Below are positions 32,314 through 64,000 of a DNA stretch of 64,000 nucleotides, in pieces. The position numbers were made by a program, and so were the translations under genes. Below the pieces are notes generated by a model. That model searched no databases and was not told the DNA's origin. It saw only the letters and a program-made list of their open reading frames with translations. Source of the DNA: a virus. The stretch is taken from IMG/VR virus record IMGVR_UViG_3300022695_000133, positions 9,907 through 73,906 of that record. One strand, written 5' to 3'. Positions within the stretch are counted from its first letter, which is position 1. Each line of letters begins with the position of its first letter.

Positions 32314-33450
32314 CTACCCACACACACTAAAAAGTGATGTGTTGGTTTTAGACTTAGAAAAATGAGAAGCAATAGAGCAAAACATAGTCTGTCTTTCGGG
32401 ATTGTTTATAGAAATCCCCAACGAAGCGATAACTTTAGCCGCATTAAAATCAGCATCTATCGTATCTACTTCGCAATTTGTATTAGTGCATTTAAACACC
32501 TTGTTTGTTCGTTTGCCGATATGGTTGCAAGAATTACAAGTTTGACTTGTATAGTTAGGTGGTGCAACAATCAATTTTACACCATTAAGCAAAGCTTTGT
32601 ATTCAAGAAATTTTCTAAGTTGACTGAAATTCCATTTACCAAGTTTAGTTTTAAACTTTTTAGAACGTCTTTTAGAGTTAAATCTAATACCTGTCAAATC
32701 CTCAATGGCAATACCTTTTCCTTGCTCTTTAGCAGACTTGACAATTTGTTTACTGATAGTGTGATTGATGATAGTGGCGTGAGTACGTTCTTTTCCCGAA
32801 AGCCTTTTCAAAAGTCGTTTAGAACTTCTTGTGCGTTTGGATTGGATACTACTCCGAACTTTTTGCCGATGTTCTCTATACTCATTAAGTTTATCGGCAG
32901 AAAACTCAATGTTATCAGACGTGTGGCAAATGGTATTCAAACCAAAATCACAGCCTATAAATTCTTCTATGTCTTTAATATCTTCATCGGGAACGTCAAT
33001 AGTTTGAAAAAGATAAAATTTACCTTTTTTGTAAACCAAATTTGCTTCTCCTTTTATATATGGAATGTACTTTTTATTATGGCAAACAAAAGGTATTTTT
33101 TGGCGACCACCAATAAGCCATATAGAAGCAATCTCTTTTTTGTAGGTAAGAATACGGCTATCATAAGTTATTGCCCCAAGTGGTCTAAATTTACGTTGTA
33201 CTTTCTTATCAATCTTATAACTATCGGTAACTTTACTAATAGCACGTACAAGTACTTGTGCAGAAAGATTATACTTGGATTTAAAAGTATGGTAAACTTT
33301 ATGATGTGTTTTATATTGATTATACAACTTTTCCTTAAAAGCTATTTCAGAAATAGCATCACAAACAGTATTAACTTCTTTCATAGTATCTATGATAAGT
33401 TTTTCCTGTTCTTTAGTAGGCAAAAGTTTTATTTTAAATGTCACTTTCAC
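32314..33450 (-). CDS. tnpB: RNA-guided endonuclease TnpB (Cas12f-like)
   Basis: RuvC I GCDFG, RuvC II IAIEDL, zinc finger TSQTCNSC...C...C, RuvC III DADFNAA all intact; GTG start just after TATATTTG. Confidence 0.93.
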   Translation of the reverse strand: MKVTFKIKLLPTKEQEKLIIDTMKEVNTVCDAISEIAFKEKLYNQYKTHHKVYHTFKSKYNLSAQVLVRAISKVTDSYKIDKKVQRKFRPLGAITYDSRILTYKKEIASIWLIGGRQKIPFVCHNKKYIPYIKGEANLVYKKGKFYLFQTIDVPDEDIKDIEEFIGCDFGLNTICHTSDNIEFSADKLNEYREHRQKVRSSIQSKRTRSSKRLLKRLSGKERTHATIINHTISKQIVKSAKEQGKGIAIEDLTGIRFNSKRRSKKFKTKLGKWNFSQLRKFLEYKALLNGVKLIVAPPNYTSQTCNSCNHIGKRTNKVFKCTNTNCEVDTIDADFNAAKVIASLGISINNPERQTMFCSIASHFSKSKTNTSLFSVCG

Positions 33451-33454
33451 AATG

Positions 33455-33462
33455 CAAATATA
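33455..33462 (-). promoter_or_regulatory. Bacteroidota-type -7 box for tnpB
   Basis: TATATTTG on - strand 4 nt before the GTG start. Confidence 0.6.
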
Positions 33463-33511
33463 CAAAATATTTTCATATGTTTGATAAAAAATAATATTAA
33501 TTTAGGGGTTA

Positions 33512-37495: not shown

Positions 37496-39025
37496 TTATT
37501 TAAGTTTATTCATTAAACTAATTATTCTTGTTTGGGTTGGGTCAACATAAGCTCTATTTTCATTTAATTGTGTTGATTGGCTTGTTGATTTACCATTCCC
37601 ATTTTTTCTTTCTATTGATTCCCTTAAAGGTGTTTTACTACCTAATTCAGAAGCAATTGATTTGTACATTTTTTTAGACTCTTCAATTGTAGAAACTTCA
37701 TTATCAAACCTACTTAATATTTGTTTCTTTTCATTACTAGTTGTTGAGTGTTCTAAAAATAATTTAGTGGCATATGTTAAATTAGAGCTAAATACGGCTG
37801 TTTCAGCTAGCATTTTTCTGAAATCTTTTAAAGATTCTTTAAATACTTTATTTTCGGCTTTTATTTTTTTAGCCTCATTTAGTAATGAATTATATTTAAT
37901 TGAAACCTCTTTAAGTTTACCACCCTTAACGCCTTGAACATGCTTTGCACCAGTTCCTACTGGTTGGCCAATATCAGCTTTTGCTGGGAGTCTATGTCCA
38001 TCGCCATTCCCTTTGGGAATAGATTCATCAATAGGTTCTTCAGTTTCATTAATGTCTTTATCGTTATTCATGTCTTCTTCTTCACTGTCATCCATTTCCA
38101 TAATATGTTTACCATGTGAGTCGCCAGTTCCGTTTTGACCATTATCATCAAATCCCCCTACTAGATTATCTCCAGAATCAGAATCAATTGGTGATACCTG
38201 TTTATCAATATCTCCACTATTTGGTGATGGTGTATTTATTAACTCTTTATCATGACCTTTTGGTCTAATGATATCTTCACTAACCTCATCGTCATTTGAT
38301 AATTCTATTTCATATACAATATTTTCACCCAATTCATCTTCATCTTTTTCCGCATCATCTACATCTATTTCTGCATCATCTACATCTGCTTCCGCATCGT
38401 CCACGTCTATTTCTGCGTCATCTACGTCTATTTCTGCGTCATCTACATCCATTTCCGCATCATCTACATCCATTTCCGCATCATCTACATCCATTTCCGC
38501 ATCAGGCACGTCTGTTTCTAAGTTACCATCTGGAGTCATTTCTCCTTGGTCTATTGGATTTCCTCCACCCAGTTTAACATCATATTCAGAACCAGATACT
38601 GGGTCTGAAATAATAACTTCATTTGGTGAAATAACCTCAATTTCATCATCTCCGCTTAATTTTTTATAAACAGAAATAACGTCTTCATCTGATGCTGTAG
38701 TCATATCCATTTCGTAGTCATCGCTACCTTTTTCAGTTTCGTAGTCATCGCTACCTTCAACTGGATTTTCTGGGTAATCATCCATATTATCATCACTCTC
38801 CATGCTAGGAGAATCATTTACAGGGAGATTACCAACATCTTCATTATTATCTTCGACATCTTCGATGTCATAATCATCATCATTTAATGATTCTTTTAGC
38901 GTACTAGTAATTTCTTCTTTCGCTACCGAACGAAGTATTTCTTTAGTATTTTCCTTAAGCACTTTTTGAATAAGGTCGTATTCCGCTATTGCTTCTGTAA
39001 TTATAGACTTTTTGGCGTCTTTCAT
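37496..39025 (-). CDS. Prohead core/scaffold protein (gp22-like), highly acidic
   Basis: Position between protease and capsid; D/E-rich; C-terminal coiled coil with NLTYATKLF. Confidence 0.8.
   Translation of the reverse strand: MKDAKKSIITEAIAEYDLIQKVLKENTKEILRSVAKEEITSTLKESLNDDDYDIEDVEDNNEDVGNLPVNDSPSMESDDNMDDYPENPVEGSDDYETEKGSDDYEMDMTTASDEDVISVYKKLSGDDEIEVISPNEVIISDPVSGSEYDVKLGGGNPIDQGEMTPDGNLETDVPDAEMDVDDAEMDVDDAEMDVDDAEIDVDDAEIDVDDAEADVDDAEIDVDDAEKDEDELGENIVYEIELSNDDEVSEDIIRPKGHDKELINTPSPNSGDIDKQVSPIDSDSGDNLVGGFDDNGQNGTGDSHGKHIMEMDDSEEEDMNNDKDINETEEPIDESIPKGNGDGHRLPAKADIGQPVGTGAKHVQGVKGGKLKEVSIKYNSLLNEAKKIKAENKVFKESLKDFRKMLAETAVFSSNLTYATKLFLEHSTTSNEKKQILSRFDNEVSTIEESKKMYKSIASELGSKTPLRESIERKNGNGKSTSQSTQLNENRAYVDPTQTRIISLMNKLK
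38336..38503 (-). repeat. 8 x 21-bp tandem repeat encoding DAE(M/I/A/K)D(V/E)D
   Basis: Unit ATCTACATCCATTTCCGCATC and variants, 168 bp in total. Confidence 0.95.
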
Positions 39026-53664: not shown

Positions 53665-54072
53665 TTAAATTAATTTAGTTAGTAATTTAATGAAATATTT
53701 GATATCATTAACATCTGAGAATTTATCGCTAATTATTTTTTCATATATAATTTTTATTTCATCTTTAGTGCGCTTTATATTAGATTTATTTATTACGTTT
53801 AACTCTTCCTTAATCAAGTCAGTATTTATTTTTTCATAAAATTCAGCTCTATATTTTGGCTTTATAATAGAATTTAAAAATTTTCCTTGGCTATCCGAAG
53901 TTTCAAATGTAACATAATCAATAAGAGAAACATCAAAATACTTATATTTAGCCCCAGATGAAAATACAATTTCCAAAATATTATTTAGTTTATTATATGT
54001 GGACGATAATATATTAGATGAATTATAGTACCCATTAATTGTTTTTTCATTTTCAGTTCTTTCTTTTATCAT
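53665..54072 (-). CDS. KTSC-domain protein
   Basis: SSNILSSTYN...LEIVFSSGAKYKYFDV...SQGKFLNSIIK. Confidence 0.85.
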   Translation of the reverse strand: MIKERTENEKTINGYYNSSNILSSTYNKLNNILEIVFSSGAKYKYFDVSLIDYVTFETSDSQGKFLNSIIKPKYRAEFYEKINTDLIKEELNVINKSNIKRTKDEIKIIYEKIISDKFSDVNDIKYFIKLLTKLI

Positions 54073-54084
54073 AATTTTTTATTA

Positions 54085-54146
54085 CAAAAATACGTAAAAA
54101 AAAATGAAAAAACAACTTGTTTATCTTAAAAAAAATCATATATTTG
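54085..54146. promoter_or_regulatory. Divergent Bacteroidota-type -7 boxes
   Basis: TATTTTTG on - (54092-54085) before KTSC; TATATTTG on + (54139-54146) 4 nt before the clpC ATG. Confidence 0.6.
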
Positions 54147-54150
54147 CATT

Positions 54151-54930
54151 ATGAAATTTAAGGCTAGCGCCAAAGTAAAGTCTATTTTTACTAATGCTTT
54201 AGAAGAAGTAAAAAATTATGATGACACAAAATTAAATCCAACGCATTTATTGATATCAATAATTATTGATGGTAATAATGATGTTATTAACATTCTTAAT
54301 AAATGTAAAATTGATATTAATAAACTATTTAATTCTGGGACTTTATTTTTAGGTACTAATAATTTAACCAGTAAAAGGCCATATACAACTAACACCCATT
54401 TAAGTGCTACTGATACCGTTAATCGAATCATGAAGCAAATTAACATTGAATGTGAATTGCTAGGTAATAAAAAAATAAATGAATTACATTTAATGTTATC
54501 AATTTTAAAGAGTAATTCATACGCAAAAAAATTACTAAATAAATTTAATATAAATTATCTTAATTTTAAAAATAATATTATGGAAAAAGAATTTGAAGAA
54601 GAAATGGATAGAGTTAACTCAGAAAATAATCAAAAACCAGCTAAGTCTAATAAAAATATGAAAACCCCAATTTTAGATAAATTTTGTAATAATATATCAA
54701 AAGCAGTTGAAGATGGTAAAATAGACCCAATTATTGGGCGTGATAAAGAAATAAAAAGACTTAGTTCGATTTTATCTAGACGTAAAAAAAACAACCCAGT
54801 ATTAATTGGTTTACCAGGCGTTGGAAAATGTGTTTGTTCTGACACAGAAGTAATTATCAGAAATGATTTAACTGGTAAAATAAGAAAAACTACAATAAAA
54901 GAAGTCTTAAAAATGTTTCCAAACACATAG
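54151..54930 (+). CDS. clpC: ClpC N-part (Clp_N domain + D1 to Walker A Lys) fused to a 33-aa N-intein
   Basis: GKIDPIIGRDKEIKR...RRKKNNPVLIGLPGVGK|CVCSDTEVIIRN...; IntN at 54829-54927. Confidence 0.92.
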   Translation: MKFKASAKVKSIFTNALEEVKNYDDTKLNPTHLLISIIIDGNNDVINILNKCKIDINKLFNSGTLFLGTNNLTSKRPYTTNTHLSATDTVNRIMKQINIECELLGNKKINELHLMLSILKSNSYAKKLLNKFNINYLNFKNNIMEKEFEEEMDRVNSENNQKPAKSNKNMKTPILDKFCNNISKAVEDGKIDPIIGRDKEIKRLSSILSRRKKNNPVLIGLPGVGKCVCSDTEVIIRNDLTGKIRKTTIKEVLKMFPNT

Positions 54931-54979
54931 AAAGTATTTCAATAAATTTTATTATGAAAAAAATTATAAAAAATAAAAT

Positions 54980-57154
54980 ATGAAAAATTTAAAAAAAATA
55001 ATAAAATCATTCGATATGAGTGATTATAGTATACTAACTGATAGTGGGTTTGAAAAGTTAAATAAACTCCATAAAACAGTACCATATGAGGTATATCACC
55101 TTAAATTATCTAATGGTAAAGAACTTAAATGCGCTGATAATCATGTTGTATTTCAATTTGAAAATGATGAATTAACTGAAGTTTTTGTTAAAGATTTAAC
55201 TAAAGATTCGTTAATTGTTTCAAATAATAAAATAACTAATTCATTATCTAAATCTGAACTTATATCGTTAACCGATTTAAGATATAAAGAAAATATGTAT
55301 GATTTCGAATTGAGTGAAAGTGCAAATAAAAGATACTATACAAATGACATTTTATCCCATAATACAGCAATAATTGAAGGGTTGGCAACTTTAATTTATG
55401 AAGAAGAGTCTCCATTGCCATTATTAGATAAAAAAATATATTCATTAAACCTATCTTTAATTGTAGCTGGAACCAAATATAGGGGCCAGTTTGAAGAAAG
55501 AATGAAAATTATATTATCTGAATTAAAAAATAACCCGAATGTTATCTTATTTATTGACGAATTACACACTATTGTTGGCGCTGGAAATAGCACTGGTTCT
55601 TTGGATGCATCAAATATATTAAAACCAGCCTTAGCCAGAGGTGAAATTCAAATTATTGGCGCAACTACATTAGATGAATATCGAGAAAATATAGAAAAAG
55701 ATGGGGCATTAACTAGAAGATTCCAAGAAATATTGGTTGAGGAACCCACATTGCCAGAAACTATAATAATTCTTAATAAAATAAAAGAAAATTATGAGGC
55801 GTATCACAATGTTATATATTCGGATGAAATTATTAATGAAATCGCCAAGTTAAGCGATAGATATATCTCAGGTAGAGCTATGCCAGATAAAGCAATTGAT
55901 GTCTTAGATGAAGTTGGGGCATCAACTAATGTAATAATGGGCTATCCAGAAGAAATCACTAATATAAAATTAAAAATAAAAGAATTAAATGAGAAAAAAT
56001 TAAAGATAATAACTGAGCAACGTTATGAAGAGGCAGCCCTAATTAGAGATGAGGAAGATACTTTAAAACATAATCTAAATAAGAAGACAAAGTTATGGAA
56101 TGATAAAAATAAAAATAATCCAACTAAAATTACATTGGATATGGTTGCAGCATCAATGTCAATTATTACTGGAATTCCTTTAAATAAATTAACAGTGTCA
56201 GAAAATAATACTTTGAAAAATCTTGAATTAGATTTGAAAAAAATAATAATTGGGCAAGACGAAGCCATAAATAAAGTATCTAAGGCAATAAAACGTAGTA
56301 GGCTAGGTATTAAAAACAAAAAATCACCAATTGCTAGTTTTTTATTTTTAGGAAATTCTGGAGTAGGTAAAACATTTTTGTCTAAAGTTTTGGCTGATAA
56401 AGTATTTGGAGATTCAGATGCTTTAATAACAATTAATATGGGTGAATATATGGAAAAACATGCAATGTCAAAAATGATTGGGGCGCCTCCAGGTTATGTT
56501 GGATATGGAGAAGGTGGAAAATTGACCGAACCAGTTAGAAAAAAACCATATTGTGTTATTTTATTTGATGAAATAGAAAAAGCCCACCCAGATATGTTTA
56601 ATTTACTTTTACAACTATTAGATGAAGGAAGTTTAACCGATAGTAATGGCAGAAAAGTGGATTTTAAAAATACCTTGATTATTATGACTTCAAATATTGG
56701 GTCAATGGAAGTATCTAAGTTTGGTGAGAGTATTGGATATAGCAGCCAAAATAGTAGAATTATTGATGCACAAAAAAGAGCCAAAAATATTATAAAAAAA
56801 GCGTTAAAAAATAAATTTAGACCAGAATTTATAAATAGAATTGACGATATGATAATATTTAATTCATTAACTACTGAAAACATATTAGAAATTGTTAATA
56901 ATGAATTGAATTTGGTTAAAGAGCACATTAACGAACTAGGGTATGAACTAGATGTCACTAAATCAGCACGCAAATTTATTGCCAAAGAAGGTTATGATAA
57001 AGAATTTGGTGCTAGACCATTAACCAGGGCAATTCAAAAATATGTTGAAGATGTAATAGCCGACGAAATTATGAATGGTAACCTTAATAATGAAACTAAT
57101 AAAATTAAAATTAATTATACATTAAATAATGGAATAAAAGCTATAATTAACTAA
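54980..57154 (+). CDS. clpC: 128-aa C-intein fused to ClpC C-part (rest of D1, M coil, D2)
   Basis: CADNH (block B), MYDFEL (block F), ILSHN|TAIIEGLA; FIDELHTIVGAG, GNSGVGKT, GAPPGYVGY, LFDEIEKAHP, FGARPL; IntC at 54980-55363. Confidence 0.93.
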   Translation: MKNLKKIIKSFDMSDYSILTDSGFEKLNKLHKTVPYEVYHLKLSNGKELKCADNHVVFQFENDELTEVFVKDLTKDSLIVSNNKITNSLSKSELISLTDLRYKENMYDFELSESANKRYYTNDILSHNTAIIEGLATLIYEEESPLPLLDKKIYSLNLSLIVAGTKYRGQFEERMKIILSELKNNPNVILFIDELHTIVGAGNSTGSLDASNILKPALARGEIQIIGATTLDEYRENIEKDGALTRRFQEILVEEPTLPETIIILNKIKENYEAYHNVIYSDEIINEIAKLSDRYISGRAMPDKAIDVLDEVGASTNVIMGYPEEITNIKLKIKELNEKKLKIITEQRYEEAALIRDEEDTLKHNLNKKTKLWNDKNKNNPTKITLDMVAASMSIITGIPLNKLTVSENNTLKNLELDLKKIIIGQDEAINKVSKAIKRSRLGIKNKKSPIASFLFLGNSGVGKTFLSKVLADKVFGDSDALITINMGEYMEKHAMSKMIGAPPGYVGYGEGGKLTEPVRKKPYCVILFDEIEKAHPDMFNLLLQLLDEGSLTDSNGRKVDFKNTLIIMTSNIGSMEVSKFGESIGYSSQNSRIIDAQKRAKNIIKKALKNKFRPEFINRIDDMIIFNSLTTENILEIVNNELNLVKEHINELGYELDVTKSARKFIAKEGYDKEFGARPLTRAIQKYVEDVIADEIMNGNLNNETNKIKINYTLNNGIKAIIN

Positions 57155-57174
57155 ATATTTTTTTTAAGAAACTG

Positions 57175-57200
57175 AAATCCCTCTCAATGAGGGATTTTTT
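57175..57200 (+). terminator. Intrinsic terminator after clpC
   Basis: AAATCCCTC-TCAAT-GAGGGATTT plus T run. Confidence 0.85.
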
Positions 57201-57214
57201 CATATTTAAAACAT

Positions 57215-57910
57215 GTGATGAATTGCTTAATTAAAAAAATACTAAGAGAAGAATTAAATAAAATTATAATAGAAACTAATAATTTTTGGTTTCACGGAAC
57301 CCCAGACGTCAGAGAAATTGAAAAAAACTCTGGTTTTACTAATAGAAAAACATCGATAGATTATATTAAAGATATTCCAAAATATTATGAATTACAACGT
57401 AAATTAAAAATTTCACGAGAAAATAATAATGATGATGAATATTTTAAATATTTAGATTTAGTTCCGAAATATAAAGGACGCTTCACTTTCACATCTCCAA
57501 TTTTCTTAAGTAATAAGAGTAATGTAGCTAAAACATATGCTGACCCAAAAAGAAGTTTTGATTACCAAAATGCAGTATCTAAACTTATTAAAGTTACCGT
57601 GAAAAAAGGTAAAAGTGTTGAAATAATAGCACATGGTGACAGATTTAGATTTATAAATGTGGATAAGGTAAAAAAAGGGTTCGTGGATGGTGGAATTAAT
57701 GGAAATGAATTTAATGAAGTATTAAGTAGAATCAATTTCTATAATTTAAATAAAAATGGTATAAGAACAGAAATTATTGCAGCTTTGGGACAATGGTTTA
57801 ATTTTGATTATATAGATGTGATAGGTGCGCTAGATTCATATAATGGGGGAGTAATAGAATCAACTATTAGAATTATTTTAAATCCTAATACCATATCAAT
57901 AGTTAAATAG
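57215..57910 (+). CDS. ADP-ribosyltransferase-like protein
   Basis: FWFHGT ... PIFLSNKSNVAKTYA (HGT / F.S....A..YA pattern). Confidence 0.55.
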   Translation: MMNCLIKKILREELNKIIIETNNFWFHGTPDVREIEKNSGFTNRKTSIDYIKDIPKYYELQRKLKISRENNNDDEYFKYLDLVPKYKGRFTFTSPIFLSNKSNVAKTYADPKRSFDYQNAVSKLIKVTVKKGKSVEIIAHGDRFRFINVDKVKKGFVDGGINGNEFNEVLSRINFYNLNKNGIRTEIIAALGQWFNFDYIDVIGALDSYNGGVIESTIRIILNPNTISIVK

Positions 57911-57953
57911 AATTAATTAGTAACTATTTAAAAATATAAATATATTTAATATT

Positions 57954-58607
57954 ATGCCATATATCTATAAAAAAATAGGAAATAAAACTTGTGTATTCAA
58001 AAAAAATACAAAAAAATTAGTGGGCTGTACCAAAGGTAATATTAAAAAATATTTAAATGCATTATATGTAAATGAATCAATAAATGAAGAAAGTGCAGAT
58101 AAAATTGATTACATTAAAATGGATATTCCGTTATTCATACGCATGCTAGAGTTTGCAAGAGAAGATGCCAAGACAGATTTGGACTTACACTATGCAACAG
58201 AAAAATCAACAAAATTAACTAAGGAATTTGGAATCTTATCAATGGTTAATTATGATGATATTGTTCCAAATCATAATAAGACAATTAAAGAAGAAACAAA
58301 TTTAAATGTTACTGACGAATCACCAGATAGCATAACTGTAGTTGCAACATACAATAATAGAAATGCTGGACTTATATTACTAGCTAAAACTGAAAAAAGT
58401 GATACATTGGAGATAATAGGTATACGATTTTTGAAAGAATATCAAACATTGTTTATTATAAACGAAACAATTAAACAATTATTTTCAACCTTTAAAAATG
58501 TTAATCATTTTAAATTATCACCCAAACCAGATTCAATAGAATTTTGGAATAAATTAGGTTTCCAACGAATATCTAAACATTATTTAGTTCTAAATAAGGG
58601 TCACTAA
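57954..58607 (+). CDS. Hypothetical protein with C-terminal GNAT-like segment
   Basis: AGLILL ... SIEFWNKLGFQ (FW.K.GF). Confidence 0.5.
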   Translation: MPYIYKKIGNKTCVFKKNTKKLVGCTKGNIKKYLNALYVNESINEESADKIDYIKMDIPLFIRMLEFAREDAKTDLDLHYATEKSTKLTKEFGILSMVNYDDIVPNHNKTIKEETNLNVTDESPDSITVVATYNNRNAGLILLAKTEKSDTLEIIGIRFLKEYQTLFIINETIKQLFSTFKNVNHFKLSPKPDSIEFWNKLGFQRISKHYLVLNKGH

Positions 58608-58705
58608 ACTATTCTATTTTATCATTTAAAGAGAAGGTGAATTGGATTAATTATGTAGATAGCATAATAATAATGATAATAATTGTTTTTGTTAAATATT
58701 TTTAA

Positions 58706-58713
58706 TATATTTG
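58706..58713 (+). promoter_or_regulatory. Bacteroidota-type -7 box heading the small-ORF array
   Basis: TATATTTG 23 nt upstream of ATG 58737. Confidence 0.55.
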
Positions 58714-58736
58714 CATTATCTTTATATTAAAATATT

Positions 58737-59081
58737 ATGGACAAACAAGATAAATGCGTAGAAAAAGAATCTAAGAGTGCATCTAAAATAAGCAAACCTA
58801 ACTTTAGTTGGGATGATGATAAAGTTGCGGAAGTATCAAGGTTAGTGTGGGAGCATAGGAATTCATCCGAAATATGGACGGAGGATTTAACCGCAGAATT
58901 AGTTATTATTAGGAAATATAAAATTGAAAAAGCACTATCTTACCTCAAAGCTGATTTAATAATTTCAAATATCGATAATAATACAAATAATGTTATAGTT
59001 GATGGGAAAAAATTAAATGAACTTATAAAATATTTGACAAACTATCAAGCGGAATTGCATGGAGCTTTTATAGGTCAGTAA
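58737..59081 (+). CDS. Hypothetical protein
   Basis: 114 aa; stop abuts the first repeat arm. Confidence 0.7.
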   Translation: MDKQDKCVEKESKSASKISKPNFSWDDDKVAEVSRLVWEHRNSSEIWTEDLTAELVIIRKYKIEKALSYLKADLIISNIDNNTNNVIVDGKKLNELIKYLTNYQAELHGAFIGQ

Positions 59082-59090
59082 TAACGGTTT

Positions 59091-59273
59091 GTGGGTGGAA
59101 GATTTATTGGGGCTTATTTACCTGAATTTTTAGATGAAGAAGGGTTACAAACATTTATAGTGTGTCAGAATGCAAAATGCAATAAATGTGGGAAGGAAAT
59201 ACAATATAAATACCAAATAAAAGGCGACCATAATTTAACGCACGAAGCTGTTGAAAAATATTATTGTGGCTAA
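59091..59273 (+). CDS. Small Cys-rich hypothetical protein
   Basis: CQNAKCNKCG; stop TAA lies in the GGCTAAC box. Confidence 0.5.
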   Translation: MGGRFIGAYLPEFLDEEGLQTFIVCQNAKCNKCGKEIQYKYQIKGDHNLTHEAVEKYYCG

Positions 59274-59400
59274 CAATTAATAAGAATAGTGGCCGACTTT
59301 GAAATACAAATTTTGAATTAATAAATATAATTTTCAACATAGATAATAGCTTAAATAAACTGCTTAACTAGGCTATTATTCTTATTAATTGTTAGGCACA
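59265..59400 (+). repeat. Best attC-like site: 30-bp arms (27/30), GGCTAAC ... GTTAGGC
   Basis: TGTGGCTAACAATTAATAAGAATAGTGGCC vs reverse complement of right arm TGTGCCTAACAATTAATAAGAATAATAGCC; 76-nt spacer. Confidence 0.85.
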
Positions 59401-59406
59401 GTTATT

Positions 59407-59643
59407 ATGAAAAAAAAGTTTTTGGAAATTTTAAAAGAGTTGGAATTTGAACTAATTAGATACAAACACTGGAAACCAAATTTTGATTGGAATAATTATG
59501 AAATAGAGTACAAGAATAATGATGGTGAAACTTTTTTGTGGGATTGGGAAATAGACATTTGGGATAAAGACGAAGATAGTATTACTAATAATATTGGAGC
59601 ATTGAAATATTTTAGAAAGTGTGTGATGGCTAATTATACCTAA
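59407..59643 (+). CDS. Hypothetical protein
   Basis: ATG 59407; stop TAA lies in the ACCTAAC box. Confidence 0.65.
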   Translation: MKKKFLEILKELEFELIRYKHWKPNFDWNNYEIEYKNNDGETFLWDWEIDIWDKDEDSITNNIGALKYFRKCVMANYT

Positions 59644-59697
59644 CGAATAGTACAAGAGCTGTACGGAATTGAAAAATAATTATTAATTAAATAAATT

Positions 59698-59862
59698 ATG
59701 GCTAAAAGAGCTAAAAGAGCAAATATTTATTATGTAGAAACAAAAGGAACATATAGTAAAGTAGAGCAAATAGGAATAGGTATAAATAAAAACGTAACAA
59801 GATTTTTATGTGATAGTTGTAAGAATGAAGTAATAGTAAATGAAACTATTGACTTAGTATAG
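59698..59862 (+). CDS. Small hypothetical protein (54 aa) inside a repeat loop
   Basis: MAKRAKRANIYYVETKG...CDSCKNEVIVNETIDLV*. Confidence 0.55.
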   Translation: MAKRAKRANIYYVETKGTYSKVEQIGIGINKNVTRFLCDSCKNEVIVNETIDLV

Positions 59863-60168
59863 CTTTTGTACGTTGTTGGTTGTGGTATGAAATATAACGC
59901 ATTAATGGGAAATAAAGCGATTAACGTATGAGTTATAAGACATTAATGCGTTAAAAGATAAAACCAACCCAACTCATTACCGTTGAGTATAAGAAGCGTT
60001 GCGGATATTTAGCAACTAATTTAATTTGAAATAATGAATTTAATATTAACAATAATAGCCAATTTGAAAACGAATTTTAGCAATGATTTTTATACATTGT
60101 TATGTGTTGGTGTGGTCTGATTTATCACTAAATTTAATTTGATAATATTTATACATAAAGAAAATACT

Positions 60169-60621
60169 ATGAGTAAAGAAATGAGAAAACAAATAGATAA
60201 AATTAAAAACTTTGGTGAGTTTTTGAATGAAGATGTAAATGGTGACAATTTAATAAATAAACTATTATCATTTGGTGGTAAGAGTGTAAAATTGGGATTA
60301 GATACTGATACTGAGATTAGTCGTATATTAAATGATGGTATTTTACTTGACAATTCAAGAGTAATTAATGTTGAGGGTGAGCCAAATCAATGTCATAGAA
60401 ATAGTGCGTATAGATACAAAAATTACACTAAAGGATTTGGAAATGCCACAAGTGAAATAATGAGTGGTTATGCCTTATATAATAATAAGTGGGTTCAACA
60501 CAGTTGGTTACTTACTGAATTTAATTACTTAGAAGAAACAACGAATATTAATTTCAAAAAATACTTTGGATATAAATTAACTAAAGAAGAAAGTGATATA
60601 TTTTGCTATGAAAATGATTAA
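60169..60621 (+). CDS. Hypothetical protein with Cys/His motifs (CHRNS, VQHSW)
   Basis: ATG 60169 preceded by AATATTTATA (60144-53). Confidence 0.7.
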   Translation: MSKEMRKQIDKIKNFGEFLNEDVNGDNLINKLLSFGGKSVKLGLDTDTEISRILNDGILLDNSRVINVEGEPNQCHRNSAYRYKNYTKGFGNATSEIMSGYALYNNKWVQHSWLLTEFNYLEETTNINFKKYFGYKLTKEESDIFCYEND

Positions 60622-60700
60622 TGTAAGACTTACACATAACGGTCTTGATAAGATACATTGCGACATAAAAGAAACTTTTTAACTTGTAAATAAATTTAAT

Positions 60701-60925
60701 ATGAAATACTTAACTAACATTTTAGCACGATTTAAGCAATGGATTTTATCTATTGTTATATTGCGTTTTTTTTTTAAATTATTGTGTTATTGGCTGATAT
60801 TTGCTAATGATTTTATGAGTGACGCAAACACATTACACGATGAAGAGGGTATTCATTTTAATGTTATTGGTTATTTGTTTTATAAACGAAAAATATATTG
60901 GAATGGTGTTTTAAATGCACTATAA
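60701..60925 (+). CDS. Hypothetical protein spanning a repeat right arm
   Basis: Right arm encodes WILSIVIL; stop lies in the CTATAAC box. Confidence 0.6.
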   Translation: MKYLTNILARFKQWILSIVILRFFFKLLCYWLIFANDFMSDANTLHDEEGIHFNVIGYLFYKRKIYWNGVLNAL

Positions 60926-60952
60926 CGGACGAGTATAAAAAGAGTTTGAAAT

Positions 60953-61222
60953 ATGGATATAATAAAATATAAATATACTTGGATTGATGGTAAATTAACT
61001 GCAAAAGAAGAACCTCACAAACTCTTTTTATATATTGTTATATGTAGTTTTTGCCGCTGGTTATTTGAACTAATACATTTTAGACACTACCAACAGAAAT
61101 GGAACGGTCAGAAGCGATTTAAAACTATTAAGATAACAGGATTAAGAAGTGGTTTAATAGATGATATTGGGCAAAGGACAAGAATTGTGTTTTATTGGAA
61201 GATAGGCAAATATTACATATAA
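60953..61222 (+). CDS. Hypothetical protein spanning a repeat right arm
   Basis: Right arm encodes KLFLYIVIC; stop lies in the ATATAAC box. Confidence 0.6.
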   Translation: MDIIKYKYTWIDGKLTAKEEPHKLFLYIVICSFCRWLFELIHFRHYQQKWNGQKRFKTIKITGLRSGLIDDIGQRTRIVFYWKIGKYYI

Positions 61223-61266
61223 CGGAACGGTTTAAGCGCAGTTTAAGATTAATTAAAATAAATATT

Positions 61267-61506
61267 ATGGACAAAAAAGAATTAAAAATTTTAATAGAAG
61301 AATGTTGTAATGATATTTTTGAAAGATTGGAACCTTTAGCTAATGTTAAAGAAAGACTTTATAGAACACTTGAAGATAAATTGCGTTTAAACGATGTTGT
61401 ACGGCAAAGCGAACAGTACTATTGTGCTGATAGAGAAAATGCTATTGAGGATGCTAATTGCACTATACAATATGATTATTGTAAGGATATAGAACGGAAT
61501 CAATAG
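61267..61506 (+). CDS. Hypothetical protein spanning a repeat right arm
   Basis: ATG 61267; right arm encodes KLRLNDVVR. Confidence 0.6.
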   Translation: MDKKELKILIEECCNDIFERLEPLANVKERLYRTLEDKLRLNDVVRQSEQYYCADRENAIEDANCTIQYDYCKDIERNQ

Positions 61507-61567
61507 TATTGCCCACAATGTAAAAGTATATGAAAAGTGCGATTAATTAATTTTAAATTTAATAAAA

Positions 61568-61861
61568 ATGAAACATTATTTTGAAAATAAAGAAAGCGAA
61601 TATTGTCATAGAAAAAAATATTTTAATGATTTAATGATTGAAAGGGGTGTTAAGTCTATGATTGTTATAAACGCAAATAGGCTTACAGGTGAAGATATGA
61701 TGCTTTGTAAAAAATATATGGTTATGGGTGAAAAGGGAAATTGCGGTAATATTTGCAAAGATTATAAACCAAGAAACGGCAAAAGCGGTAATTGTTTACA
61801 CACAGGAGTGTTATATGAAAAGGGTGATGAAACTAAAATTTTCTTAACTAAACGAAAGTAA
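61568..61861 (+). CDS. Cys-rich hypothetical protein
   Basis: CGNICKDYKPRNGKSGNC. Confidence 0.7.
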   Translation: MKHYFENKESEYCHRKKYFNDLMIERGVKSMIVINANRLTGEDMMLCKKYMVMGEKGNCGNICKDYKPRNGKSGNCLHTGVLYEKGDETKIFLTKRK

Positions 61862-61992
61862 GTATTAATCATATACAATTATACAATAAATATGGTAAAT
61901 TTGGGTATTACTAATCGCCAAAGATTTAATAATTACCAACGAATTGTGTATGAATAATAAGCCTACGGATATTAATAATTAAATTTAATAAA

Positions 61993-62187
61993 ATGCAATA
62001 TAAGAAAGACATTGAAAAGGCATTAAAGGAAATGGAAACACGCAAAAGTAGTTACCTCCTTGATATGGCAAGTTACAAAGAACCTAATGGGGTTGTTTAT
62101 GACACTGACTTGATAAGAAAATTAGAGGTAACAGATGCAACGATACACACTTTAAAATGGATGCTACTTAAAAGGACTAAAGATTAG
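61993..62187 (+). CDS. Hypothetical protein
   Basis: 64 aa, within a repeat loop. Confidence 0.6.
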   Translation: MQYKKDIEKALKEMETRKSSYLLDMASYKEPNGVVYDTDLIRKLEVTDATIHTLKWMLLKRTKD

Positions 62188-62298
62188 TGGGGGTATTATT
62201 TATACACGTTGTTACCATTAACGCAGTTGGCGTCATTGTTTTAATGTGCACCAACGTAACTATTTAATGACAGTTTAAGAATCGAAAAATAAAATATT

Positions 62299-62619
62299 AT
62301 GAATGTATTAGATGATTGGCTAAAAAAATATGGAAATAAAGAATTTGATAAACAAATAGAGCAAGAGGCTTTAGATATTTTATTGGATGAATTAAAAAGA
62401 CTTGAAAAAGAAAATGCTAAATTTCGGTTAAACAAAGGGGCGTTGGTGAATAAGTTTACAAGTAATGATATAGATAAGGCATTTATGGTTGGTTGTATGA
62501 ATGTCGGCGGATTAGAAGGTTTAGATAAAGAGTTAAAAAGGCTTAAAGAATTAGGCTTTAAAACGCCTACAGAAGCTTTGTTGGCTATAAAAAACAGTAA
62601 ACAATTCCCACCAATGTAA
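62299..62619 (+). CDS. Hypothetical protein spanning a repeat right arm
   Basis: 106 aa. Confidence 0.6.
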   Translation: MNVLDDWLKKYGNKEFDKQIEQEALDILLDELKRLEKENAKFRLNKGALVNKFTSNDIDKAFMVGCMNVGGLEGLDKELKRLKELGFKTPTEALLAIKNSKQFPPM

Positions 62620-62672
62620 TCTTTTAAGTGCAGTTGTGTAAATTAAAAACTAAATTAAATATATATAGAATT

Positions 62673-62990
62673 ATGAATGTAGATGAATATTTTGGCATGT
62701 TTACTGGCGGAAATCATTATCTTGCTACATGGACGCCAAAAGCAATAAAAGATTTTGCAGAAGATTACCATAAGCAATAATTGCATTTAAAGGGACTTGG
62801 CAATTGTAAATTAAACAATTACCATATAAAAACCCAAGAGACTACTGGATGCTTTAATTTCTTTACTACCGCAAAGAACCATAAGGAAGCACTTAAACAG
62901 CTTTTAGAGAACTCAAGCGATTATAATAACATAGTTAAAGCGAAGAACGATTTAACAATAACCATAAAAAGAATTTACGAGCCTAAATAA
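62673..62990 (+). pseudogene. ORF interrupted by an in-frame TAA (62778-80) at a repeat right arm
   Basis: MNVDEYF...YHKQ*LHLKGLGNC... same frame on both sides. Confidence 0.5.
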
Positions 62991-63122
62991 TTTACAATTA
63001 TCAACGTGTTGTATAAGAAGCGGTGGTAATATTTTAGGAAAAATTTAATTGAAGTAATGAATTTAATATTAACAATAAGTCCCCAATAAAAAGATTTGAA
63101 GGGTTAAATAAATATAAATATT

Positions 63123-63320
63123 ATGAGAAAAGAAAATGAAACAAAAACAATTTACAACTTAGATTTAAATGAGGAATTTTATGAAAATAGCAGATTAAAA
63201 ATACAAAGAGTTGCCTCTGGATGGATATATAAGTATTATATTGAAACAAGCGCATATGGAAAATTCAAATTAAACAATACCGTTTTTGTACCTTATGATA
63301 ATAGGTTTCAAAAGACATAA
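63123..63320 (+). CDS. Hypothetical protein spanning a repeat right arm
   Basis: 65 aa; stop lies in an ACATAAC box. Confidence 0.65.
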   Translation: MRKENETKTIYNLDLNEEFYENSRLKIQRVASGWIYKYYIETSAYGKFKLNNTVFVPYDNRFQKT

Positions 63321-63643
63321 CACAGCAAGTTTAACGATTTGTATGTGATTTAGTTTGTGAAATGAATTATATTGATGAGTGGGGTTTATACCCTATTTAA
63401 TAAATAAAAAGTCGCACCAAAAAATAATTATATTAAATTAATTATCTGTAAATTTGAATATAATTAAAAATAAATTAATTTTTACTTGTGTATTTCACAT
63501 TTATTATCTATATTAGCAGAATTAATTATAAATTTAAATAATATTTGGATTTAAAAATAAAATAAAAAGCAAAGATGTAAAGTTACCCATATTTGATGTC
63601 AGCGTTTTGTTTTTGAACATTAACATACTAAAACTTTAAGAAT

Positions 63644-63985
63644 ATGGCTTATTTACATTGTCATACTTGCAATTGGTCACAAGATGATTTTTACACAAAA
63701 AGTTACAACCCATTAATAAAAATATGGAATGACATTAAGTGGACAGCAAAACCAAGAATACTTAAATTCGACACAAATGAACCTAAAAATATGGCTAAAA
63801 CAGTTTGGACACCTATATTTTATAAAGGTGGTAATGTTTTTTCTTGGAATTGGATGCTTGTAGAAATAGAACGAGATATTAGAAGTTTTATTCATATGAA
63901 ATGGTACACATGGGATAAATGGAATAAAGTAAAAAACACTGCCATTTGTCCAAAATGTGGCACAAGAAACTTCGACATTGATTAG
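63644..63985 (+). CDS. Zinc-finger hypothetical protein
   Basis: CHTCNWSQDDF ... CPKCG. Confidence 0.7.
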   Translation: MAYLHCHTCNWSQDDFYTKSYNPLIKIWNDIKWTAKPRILKFDTNEPKNMAKTVWTPIFYKGGNVFSWNWMLVEIERDIRSFIHMKWYTWDKWNKVKNTAICPKCGTRNFDID

Positions 63986-64000
63986 TGTTTTTATATATTA

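What the first reader, a model, noticed from the sequence alone, without database searches (positions are those of the whole stretch)
60631..61506. Right-arm GTT is an in-frame Val codon in consecutive ORFs: possible N-/C-terminal domain shuffling
In three consecutive units the right arm lies inside the ORF with GTT in frame (ATT GTT ATA, ATT GTT ATA, GAT GTT GTA; peptides ILSIVIL, FLYIVIC, LNDVVR). The site at 63279-302 keeps the same register (TAT for GTT). Recombination at G^TT would swap C-terminal halves behind different leader+N-termini and make chimeric in-frame proteins. Other sites are out of register, which may reflect decay or argue against the idea.
Basis: partly seen in the sequence, partly recalled or inferred. 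Interest (0 to 1): 0.7.

Follow-up and report, generated by a model that had tools for sequence, protein, structure and literature searches.

The report
Translated attC-like hairpins shuffle phage proteins
Three neighbouring small phage genes each start inside an integron-type DNA hairpin whose far arm is translated (GTT = valine).

Summary
In detail: GTT is in frame in ORFs B (60701-60925), C (60953-61222) and D (61267-61506). Each GTT pairs with the AAC of a TAACGG left arm at the upstream gene's end, closing a 126-190 nt hairpin. The register itself is uninformative, because 83% of TGTTRT in this genome's long ORFs have GTT in frame. The fourth site (63279-302) has no hairpin.

The hairpins are real. 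Fourteen genes from several phage types share the geometry, with compensatory changes at 30 stem positions. In relatives both arms resemble a ~133-nt repeat forming large same-orientation arrays beside an integrase-like gene in marine Flavobacteriaceae, which look like chromosomal integrons. Phage genes run opposite to host cassette genes.

Homologue tests split:
- **C:** moves as a whole gene, bordered at TAA|C (the canonical integron cut, in the left arm), with no break at its motif.
- **B:** relatives differ upstream of the motif, and one lacks it.
- **D:** an orphan, but its junction type (L-x-L-x-D-V) joins one N-module to at least 9 C-modules and single C-modules to 9-15 N-modules in marine phage proteins.

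Domain shuffling at the right arm is real in the family. Its mechanism (integrase on the other strand, or homologous recombination) is open. attC clusters in phages are published; translated, domain-shuffling ones are not, as far as I found.

The parts
60635..60662 (+). Left arm of hairpin B (CATAACGGTCTTGATAAGATACATTGCG). It lies 14 nt after the stop of ORF 60169-60621, and its TAA is a second in-frame stop for that ORF.
   Evidence: (duplex -20.7 kcal/mol, z -3.4).
60735..60760 (+). Right arm of hairpin B, translated as ...QWILSIVI. GTT at 60755-60757 is codon 19 of B.
   Evidence: It shares a 27-nt motif (85% identity) with the C right arm.
60701..60925 (+). ORF B, 74 aa, a small membrane-type protein. 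Its stop TAA lies within TATAACGG, the left arm of hairpin C.
   Evidence: Homologues P0008 and P0006 and those in L034 and L035 have different N-termini upstream of the motif.
60918..60949 (+). Left arm of hairpin C (CACTATAACGGACGAGTATAAAAAGAGTTTGA). It ends 4 nt before the ATG.
61017..61048 (+). Right arm of hairpin C, translated as ...HKLFLYIVICS. GTT at 61037-61039 is codon 29.
60920..61225 (+). Cassette C: the whole unit shared with an HK97-like phage contig (L009, 87.6% identity) and with L016 (91.6% over 60904-61223). It is bounded by TATAA|C at both ends.
61215..61246 (+). Left arm of hairpin D (ACATATAACGGAACGGTTTAAGCGCAGTTTAA). Its TAA is the stop codon of C.
61376..61404 (+). Right arm of hairpin D, translated as DKLRLNDVVR. 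GTT at 61396-61398 is codon 44. This is the same junction type as L-[TI]-[LI]-x-x-V in the marine mosaics.
61267..61506 (+). ORF D, 79 aa: a helical N-module, the junction, then a Cys-containing C-module. It has no homologue.
59976..60105 (+). Non-coding 130-nt copy of the B-type element, with both arms. Its mini-ORF is out of register.
63000..63078 (+). Partial second copy of the element at 59976 (left arm and leader only).
62192..62217 (+). Orphan right-arm motif (TTATTTATACACGTTGTTACC) in non-coding DNA just after ORF 61993-62187. It is the only window site recognised by the profile built from the bacterial repeat.
   Evidence: PWM 18.2; E 0.016.
59258..59407 (+). Near-perfect 150-nt hairpin GGCTAAC...GTTAGGC between ORF 59091-59273 and ORF 59407-59643. 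Here the right arm ends just before the ATG and is not translated.
   Evidence: I1; z -8.0.

Best explanation
B, C and D each begin inside an integron-type attC-like hairpin.

**Anatomy.** The left arm, (T)A(T)AACGG..., sits at the end of the upstream gene; for B and C its TAA is that gene's stop codon. The loop holds the AT-rich leader, the ATG and the N-terminal 18-43 codons. The right arm is translated in a fixed register in which GTT, pairing with the left-arm AAC, is a Val codon.

**Relation to the host.** In relatives the arms match a ~133-nt repeat that forms integron-like cassette arrays in marine Flavobacteriaceae, the likely host group. The phage genes run on the strand that is the attC bottom (folding) strand in those arrays, opposite to host cassette genes.

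**Two kinds of exchange.**
1. Whole genes move as cassettes with borders at TAA|C in the left arm. This is the canonical integrase cut. It is shown for C in three contexts and for the 3' border of the B relative P0008.
2. N-modules and C-modules are re-joined at the right arm. This is shown as combinatorial mosaics for the D-type junction in relatives.

Because the arm is read in one register in nearly all genes examined (one exception found), a crossover within it gives an in-frame chimera.

**What is inferred, not shown.** Which enzyme acts is unknown: a host integron-type integrase on either strand, or phage or host homologous recombination using the 20-30-nt conserved arm. Breakpoints scattered over about 15 nt of the arm suggest homologous recombination or gene conversion for at least some right-arm events.
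For: - **Hairpins:**
- **Shared geometry and covariation:** 14 genes from the window and six other contigs were anchored on the Val codon. GTT pairs with AAC (C-G at position 0 in 10 of 13, A-T at position 1 in 13 of 14), and 30 stem positions carry compensatory double changes.
- **Strand asymmetry:** the coding strand folds better in 14 of 15 hairpins, and 58 of 369 pairs are G.T.
- **Host repeat:** the right-arm 21-mer occurs in at least 120 stretches, nearly all Flavobacteriaceae. There it ends a 130-139-nt palindromic repeat (69 of the 72 copies with a recognisable left arm).
- **Host arrays:** Polaribacter and Winogradskyella genomes each hold at least 40 copies, clustered in the same orientation in Polaribacter.
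- **Recombinase:** the gene 0.8 kb from the last Polaribacter repeat scores 219 bits against the 220-bit cut-off of NF040815 ('tyrosine recombinase/integron integrase') and 211 against the 265-bit cut-off of TIGR02249.
- **Host gene orientation:** an antisense ORF ends at the right arm in 81 of 99 copies.
- **Independent match of the left arm:** phage left arms, which were not used to fish out the repeat, match its left arm (E 4e-5 and 6e-7). A whole element matches at L021:20-148.
- **Cassette borders at TAA|C:**
- **Stop-codon bias:** TAAC ends 5 of 17 small genes against 2 of 56 long ORFs (p 2.5e-4).
- **Mosaics:** one N-module is joined to at least 9 C-modules, and two C-modules sit behind about 15 and about 9 different N-modules.
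- **Breakpoints inside ORFs on the arm:**
- **Invariant codons:** GTT in 16 of 16 junctions, and AGC at every Ser following the junction Val.
Against: - No integrase or Y1 transposase lies in the 79.5-kb contig, which is only about 22% of the genome.
- The profile built from the bacterial repeat does not recognise the B, C or D arms, only 62192-62217. Their membership rests on geometry and the TAACGG/GTT cores.
- The bacterial recombinase is below both curated cut-offs, so 'integron' for the host arrays is probable rather than proven.
- D and the relatives' hairpins (190-210 nt) are longer than classical attC sites.
- Gene orientation is opposite to canonical cassettes.
- C shows no mosaic at its motif, and D has no relatives.
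- Some right-arm exchanges are not at G|TT: variants LTLTD, LTIPR and LIIPR occur behind one N-module, and L018 carries a converted patch.
- One relative reads the arm so that the GTT falls across Cys codons (IPCC).
- The 5' border of the P0008 cassette is not at a TAA|C site.
Confidence: 0.62

Rival explanations
1. The hairpins are mRNA structures, for example processing, stability or translational-coupling elements that pair the upstream stop region with codons 20-50 of the next gene. On this view the mosaics are a by-product: ordinary homologous recombination at any conserved 20-30-nt patch, as with PeSLs in T4-type phages. No integron-type chemistry is involved in the phage.
For: - The sense strand is the better-folding strand, with many G.U-compatible pairs.
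- Covariation fits RNA as well as single-stranded DNA.
- Right-arm breakpoints are spread over about 15 nt, and converted patches exist.
- Relatives encode Sak-type annealases.
- PeSL precedent: recombination between short conserved regulatory motifs, needing under 50 bp of homology.
Against: - The same repeat forms integron-like arrays beside a tyrosine recombinase in host genomes, where it lies antisense to the genes.
- Whole-gene borders are exact at TAA|C in unrelated phage backbones, which share no flanking homology.
- There is no excess of sigma-70-type promoters or terminators in the region.
Confidence: 0.22
2. The in-frame GTT and the shared 'IVI/DVV' peptides come from codon usage and paralogy of small hydrophobic or linker segments. 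On this view there is no dedicated element, and B, C and D are just tandem relatives.
For: - The in-frame register is the default: 24 of 29 TGTTRT in long ORFs.
- B and C share only the motif region.
- Orphan in-frame motifs without a partner arm exist in Cellulophaga phage phi4:1.
Against: - B and C are not significantly similar as proteins (E 0.71).
- The arms pair with upstream non-coding DNA far better than shuffled arms do, and with compensatory changes.
- Non-coding copies exist in the window.
- Cassette C sits in three unrelated contexts.
Confidence: 0.05
3. The units are miniature transposable palindromic elements (MITE- or RPE-like) that insert at gene starts and in frame. They would be moved by a transposase elsewhere in the phage or host genome.
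For: - The units have a constant length of about 130 nt and terminal inverted repeats, with non-coding copies at 59976 and 63000.
- There is a 30-nt in-frame presence/absence of the motif among B relatives (P0006 against P0008).
- A TnpB gene lies in the window at 32314-33465.
Against: - Host copies lie in ordered, one-orientation arrays between ORFs next to a tyrosine recombinase, not scattered.
- No target-site duplications were seen.
- What moves is the gene plus its hairpin, with borders at TAA|C.
- No Y1 transposase was found in the contig.
Confidence: 0.08

Closest known systems
Integron attC sites, and clusters of attC sites without an integrase (CALINs) in phage genomes (Front Microbiol 2023, PMC9892861, which includes a virulent Polaribacter phage)
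   Same: An imperfect palindrome whose base pairs AAC with GTT, followed by an internal loop and then a second stem. It sits at gene-cassette borders, and the cassette border falls at AA|C (= G|TT). In relatives the arms resemble a repeat that forms long one-orientation arrays next to an integrase-like gene in the host family. No integrase is present in the phage contig, as in a CALIN.
   Different: The phage genes run antisense to canonical cassette orientation. The gene's leader, ATG and N-terminal module lie inside the site's loop, and one arm is translated. Loops reach 110-150 nt, so whole sites reach up to 210 nt. A second class of exchange occurs at the non-canonical arm and makes chimeric proteins. 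The 2023 paper contains no occurrence of 'chimeric'.
PeSL elements of T4-type phages (PMC2839356, PMC4122927)
   Same: Short conserved motifs containing a stem-loop, concentrated in the small-gene (hyperplastic) regions of T4-like phages. Insertions, deletions and replacements of orphan genes occur at them.
   Different: PeSLs are intergenic: a sigma-70 promoter plus a GC-rich terminator hairpin, recombined by homology. The elements here show no promoter or terminator signal. They span the gene start, are translated, and have AAC/GTT cores and a bacterial integron-like counterpart.
Glycine-rich motifs of T4 gp38 adhesins (PMC3157838) and the conserved junction motifs of polymorphic toxins, VENN in CdiA and PxxxxDPxGL in Rhs (the toxin motifs from my own knowledge)
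   Same: A short conserved in-frame motif marks the boundary between modules, and variable segments are swapped there.
   Different: Those motifs are not arms of a hairpin, have no partner upstream of the gene, and have no integron-like relatives.
R64 shufflon and Gin/Cin/Hin tail-fibre switches (own knowledge)
   Same: Site-specific recombination sites lie inside a coding region and give alternative C-termini behind a constant N-terminus.
   Different: Those systems invert segments within one genome, using a dedicated adjacent recombinase. Here the variants are population-level mosaics, all genes lie on one strand, and no recombinase is nearby.
Rickettsia palindromic elements (own knowledge)
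   Same: Palindromic repeats of about 100-150 nt that can lie in frame inside protein-coding genes.
   Different: RPEs are inserted within genes as extra peptide segments. They are not cassette borders and have no AAC/GTT cores or integrase-linked arrays.

Membership tests
Integron attC site | Imperfect inverted repeat whose outer box pairs 5'-AAC with GTT-3' (R''/R') | tested here: met
   With 14 hairpins anchored on the Val codon, G pairs with C in 10 of 13 and the first T with A in 13 of 14. B, C and D are included.
Integron attC site | A second stem (L box) separated from the R box by an unpaired spacer; structure conserved rather than sequence | tested here: met
   A 3-6-nt asymmetric internal loop follows AACGG, then a 12-21-bp stem. 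There are 30 positions with compensatory changes. Extrahelical bases were not analysed.
Integron attC site | Length about 57-141 nt | tested here: inconclusive
   B is 126 nt, C 131 nt, the copy at 59976 is 130 nt, and the host repeat is 130-139 nt. D is 190 nt, and the relatives' sites are 190-210 nt.
Integron attC site | Cassette borders at G|TT of R' (= AA|C on the bottom strand) | tested here: met
   Cassette C is bounded by TATAA|C in three contexts. The P0008 3' border falls exactly after TAA in three different contexts.
Integron attC site | Lies 3' of its cassette ORF, on the same strand as the ORF (top strand R''...R') | tested here: not met
   Host arrays obey this rule: an antisense ORF ends at the right arm in 81 of 99 copies. 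Phage genes run the other way and start inside the site.
Integron attC site | Recognised by the attC covariance models (IntegronFinder, HattCI) | not testable with these tools
   These models are not on hand. Rfam gave no match.
Integron attC site | An integron integrase acts on it | not testable with these tools
   There is no integrase in the 79.5-kb contig. The host arrays have an adjacent tyrosine recombinase scoring 219 bits against a 220-bit cut-off (NF040815) and 211 against 265 (TIGR02249).
PeSL (promoter-early stem-loop) | Sigma-70-like early promoter plus an adjacent terminator stem-loop in intergenic DNA | tested here: not met
   Promoter-like sites number 48, against 41.6 +/- 6.3 in shuffles, and there are 2 terminator-like sites against 1.0. 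The stems enclose the gene start and reach into the ORF.
Shufflon / invertible C-terminal switch | Inverted recombination sites flanking alternative C-terminal segments on both strands, with an adjacent recombinase | tested here: not met
   All small ORFs lie on the + strand, and there is no recombinase in the contig.
MITE / RPE-type palindromic element | Dispersed copies flanked by target-site duplications and independent of gene borders | tested here: not met
   Window copies sit at gene borders only. Host copies lie in ordered arrays.

The most novel reading that the evidence does not exclude
Phages of marine Flavobacteriaceae may run a dedicated protein-domain shuffling system built on translated attC sites. 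An integron-type integrase, from the host or encoded elsewhere in the phage, would cut the bottom strand at TAA|C to move whole genes. It would cut the other strand at G|TT inside the Val codon to swap N- and C-terminal modules. The fixed reading register of the arm would then make every product in frame.
Probability: 0.25. Interest if true: 0.9.

Novelty: new variant of a known kind. Interest (0 to 1): 0.74.

Why it matters
Integron attC sites are known as non-coding borders of whole-gene cassettes, and clusters of them have been reported in a few phages. Three features here differ:
- The site carries a gene's start and N-terminal module in its loop.
- One arm of the site is translated.
- In natural populations, that arm coincides with combinatorial joining of N- and C-terminal halves of small phage proteins.

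If the mechanism is confirmed, it would explain how flavobacterial phages generate large families of two-module orphan proteins, which may be host-takeover or anti-defence factors. It would extend integron-type recombination from gene shuffling to domain shuffling. It would also link phage gene pools to the chromosomal cassette arrays of their hosts. The element is easy to test, because the arms are short and the junctions are defined to the nucleotide.

Tried and rejected
**Searches that found nothing useful**
- IMG/VR scans for relatives of ORF 60169-60621 and of P0008 found none.
- A left-arm pattern in IMG/VR gave only chance hits in coding DNA of unrelated phages.
- megablast of 54000-64000 and tblastn of the 509-aa ORF 37496-39025 against isolate phages gave no match.
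- The JGI metagenome scan with the B family gave only three loci.
- Pfam and PHROGs gave no family for B, C, D or the mosaic proteins.
- Rfam matched neither the window region nor the bacterial repeats.
- Literature searches found no description of the in-frame junction.

**Attempts that failed or did not discriminate**
- Look-ups for an 'empty site' lacking cassette C in L009-type phages found none.
- A position-weight matrix of the D-type arm showed no genome-wide enrichment at a low threshold: 18 hits against 11-21 in shuffles.
- An unbiased leader-versus-ORF duplex scan first timed out. The rerun did not discriminate, because long duplexes with big internal loops inflate the energies. I replaced it with a windowed codon-shuffle control.

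**Readings rejected or weakened**
- Sigma-70 promoter or terminator reading of the arms: no excess.
- Bacteroidetes -7/-33 promoter reading of the left arm: no consistent TAnnTTTG by eye.
- B and C as paralogues: BLASTP E 0.71.
- My first folds of D used windows that cut the hairpin in two and wrongly suggested no structure. This was corrected.

Full report
**Setting.** The window is bases 9907-73906 of a 79.5-kb IMG/VR virus record, 27% G+C and estimated 22% complete. From about 58600 to 64400 it holds some 17 small + strand ORFs. The finding concerns three consecutive ones: B (60701-60925, 74 aa), C (60953-61222, 89 aa) and D (61267-61506, 79 aa).

**The observation.**
- Each lies in a stretch that pairs with DNA 4-66 nt upstream of the gene's own ATG. 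Duplex energies are -20.7, -26.6 and -24.5 kcal/mol, better than all 200 shuffled arms.
- The complete D hairpin (61216-61404) folds at -36.7 kcal/mol, z -3.7, and the C hairpin at z -3.8.
- With a codon-shuffle control over all 18 small ORFs, D and C fold better than every shuffle and B has the next best z. No other ORF does, including the one with the proposed fourth site at 63279-302.
- The register carries no information. In long ORFs of this genome, TGTTRT has GTT in frame in 24 of 29 cases.
- The left arms contain TAACGG. TAAC ends 5 of 17 small genes against 2 of 56 long ORFs, p 2.5e-4.

**Homologues of the three ORFs.**
- *C.* It has three homologue clusters, all 89 aa and aligned end to end at 70-89% identity. 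One sits in an HK97-type phage (different terminase and portal families) and another on a different short contig. The shared DNA is window 60920-61225 (from 60904 for L016), running from TATAA|C of its own left arm to TATAA|C of the next, with nothing shared outside it.
- *D.* It has no homologue.
- *B.* It has real relatives, P0008 and P0006, and further ones in L034 and L035. Their N-termini differ upstream of the motif, and P0006 lacks a 30-nt in-frame piece that includes it. They are too diverged for a sharp breakpoint.
- *The P0008 gene.* It occurs letter for letter in at least four neighbourhoods. The downstream break falls exactly after GCATATAA, and the next base differs with the neighbour: C, T or A.

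**Shuffling inside ORFs, seen in relatives.**
- In the same contigs, 98-99%-identical segments end inside neighbouring ORFs, on a motif that reads L-T-L-T-D-V or L-I-I-P-V-V.
- A search with one such protein (115 aa) returned 47 proteins, many 96-99% identical over only 22-76% of the query.
- Their sequences are combinatorial. One N-module is joined to at least 9 different C-modules. The C-module SQ[QR]SELLPDFLY... sits behind about 15 different N-modules, and SKCDCDNH... behind about 9. Some N-modules appear with three or four C-modules.
- The joint is always the motif ending in Val. D carries this junction (KLRLNDVV) at the usual position, codon 39-45.
- At the DNA level the junction is strikingly uniform: GTT in 16 of 16, AGC at every Ser following the junction Val, and ATA at the Ile two codons before it.

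**The motif is a hairpin arm.**
- In 11 of the 12 motif-bearing genes from the relatives' contigs that I tested, the arm pairs best with DNA ending 18-37 nt before the gene's own ATG. For eight of those 12 the pairing beats almost all shuffled arms (z -2.5 to -7.7). The contigs include an L045-type phage whose relatives infect Flavobacteriia.
- The left arm is (T)A(T)AACGG, then a few unpaired bases, then GGGTATGGTTAG-like sequence.
- Anchored on the Val codon, GTT pairs with AAC, and 30 stem positions show compensatory double changes across 14 hairpins, B, C and D among them.
- The coding strand folds better than its complement in 14 of 15, owing to G.T pairs.
- Recent chimeras with mismatched arms have lost the pairing (L017:244 and L020:477).

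**Where the element comes from.**
- The right-arm 21-mer occurs in at least 120 stretches of the species-genome collection, almost all marine Flavobacteriaceae.
- There it closes a 130-139-nt palindromic repeat.
- A Polaribacter genome has at least 40 copies in two one-orientation clusters, one spanning 92 kb. A Winogradskyella genome has at least 41.
- A tyrosine recombinase gene lies 0.8 kb beyond the last repeat of the large Polaribacter cluster, and likewise in Kordia. It scores 219 bits on NF040815 (cut-off 220) and 211 on the integron-integrase model TIGR02249 (cut-off 265).
- Between repeats lie one to four ORFs. In 81 of 99 copies an ORF on the opposite strand ends at the right arm.
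- This is the architecture of a sedentary chromosomal integron, although the recombinase misses the curated thresholds.
- Phage left arms, which played no part in fishing out the repeat, match its left arm (E 4e-5 and 6e-7). One phage gene start lies within a complete 129-nt copy. B, C and D themselves are too diverged for that profile; only 62192-62217 in the window matches.

**Polarity.** Host genes are antisense to the orientation used here, so the phage coding strand corresponds to the attC bottom strand. From established integron biology, that is the strand that folds and is cut between A and C of AAC. This point is TAA|C in the phage left arm, exactly where the whole-gene borders lie.

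Exchange there could come from integrase action on the other strand or from homologous recombination in the conserved arm. Three observations favour the latter for at least some events:
- arm variants behind one N-module;
- a converted patch in L018;
- a C1-C2 fusion at a TGTG microhomology.

One relative reads the arm so that the GTT falls across Cys codons (IPCC).

**Known work.** attC clusters without an integrase have been reported in virulent phages, including a Polaribacter phage (PMC9892861). PeSLs explain orphan-gene shuffling in T4-type phages by homology between intergenic promoter-terminator motifs. I found no paper describing translated attC arms or domain shuffling at them. An isolate, Cellulophaga phage phi4:1, carries the in-frame motif in annotated hypothetical proteins but without a partner arm.

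**Verdict.** The hairpins and the in-frame arms are real, but the register alone proves nothing. N/C-terminal shuffling at this arm is demonstrated for the element family, and D belongs to that family by junction and geometry. For B the evidence is suggestive, and for C it is negative. The mechanism is unresolved.

Noticed in passing
L180 (Polaribacter G002:C9:128000-147900); also G002:C9:52.6-144.8 kb and 1079-1104 kb: Large one-orientation arrays of a ~133-nt palindromic repeat lie next to a Xer/IntI-like recombinase in marine Flavobacteriaceae. They are probably sedentary chromosomal integrons, with at least 40 cassettes per genome.
   Followed up: partly
L020:417-470 and L021:1328-1380: Downstream of two different genes lies the same stretch, AGGTTTATAGAGGGTTCGATTCCCTCTATTACCCC. 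It looks like a tRNA T-arm plus 3' end, as at integrase attachment sites.
   Followed up: no
L017:244-591 (protein P0011): A three-module chimera: the 88-aa two-module protein (P0016/P0019) is fused in frame to the SKCDCDNH module. A whole hairpin and its N-module were lost at a TGTG microhomology.
   Followed up: yes
L037, L038 and one further contig: Three assemblies from different samples all start exactly 35 nt upstream of the 139-aa gene that follows cassette C in L009-type phages. This suggests a population-level branch point (variable content) there.
   Followed up: no
window 59976-60105 and 63000-63078: Two copies of a leader unit share a mini-ORF start (MNLILTI...). One has both arms and the other is truncated. 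Both lie upstream of ordinary genes (60169 and 63123).
   Followed up: partly
window 62248-62288 / 62414-62435 (ORF 62299-62619): The leader and an internal stretch (KFRLNK...) resemble D's left and right arms (73-77% identity) but pair only weakly (z -1.2). This looks like a decayed copy of the D-type hairpin.
   Followed up: partly
window 32314-33465 (- strand): A TnpB-type (Cas12f1-like TNB) ORF of about 390 aa lies inside the phage contig (68 bits against a 26-bit cut-off).
   Followed up: no
L182 (Cellulophaga phage phi4:1, NC_021788: 140735-142005): Annotated hypothetical proteins gp186, gp188 and gp189 of a cultured phage carry the in-frame junction (QLLIHGVS, QLSMHGVV, KLSIHS) without a complementary left arm.
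   Followed up: yes
L009:6580-6604: A compact palindrome, GCATATAACGGtttCCGCTATATGC, sits in an intergenic gap of the HK97-like phage: the left-arm core paired with itself.
   Followed up: no
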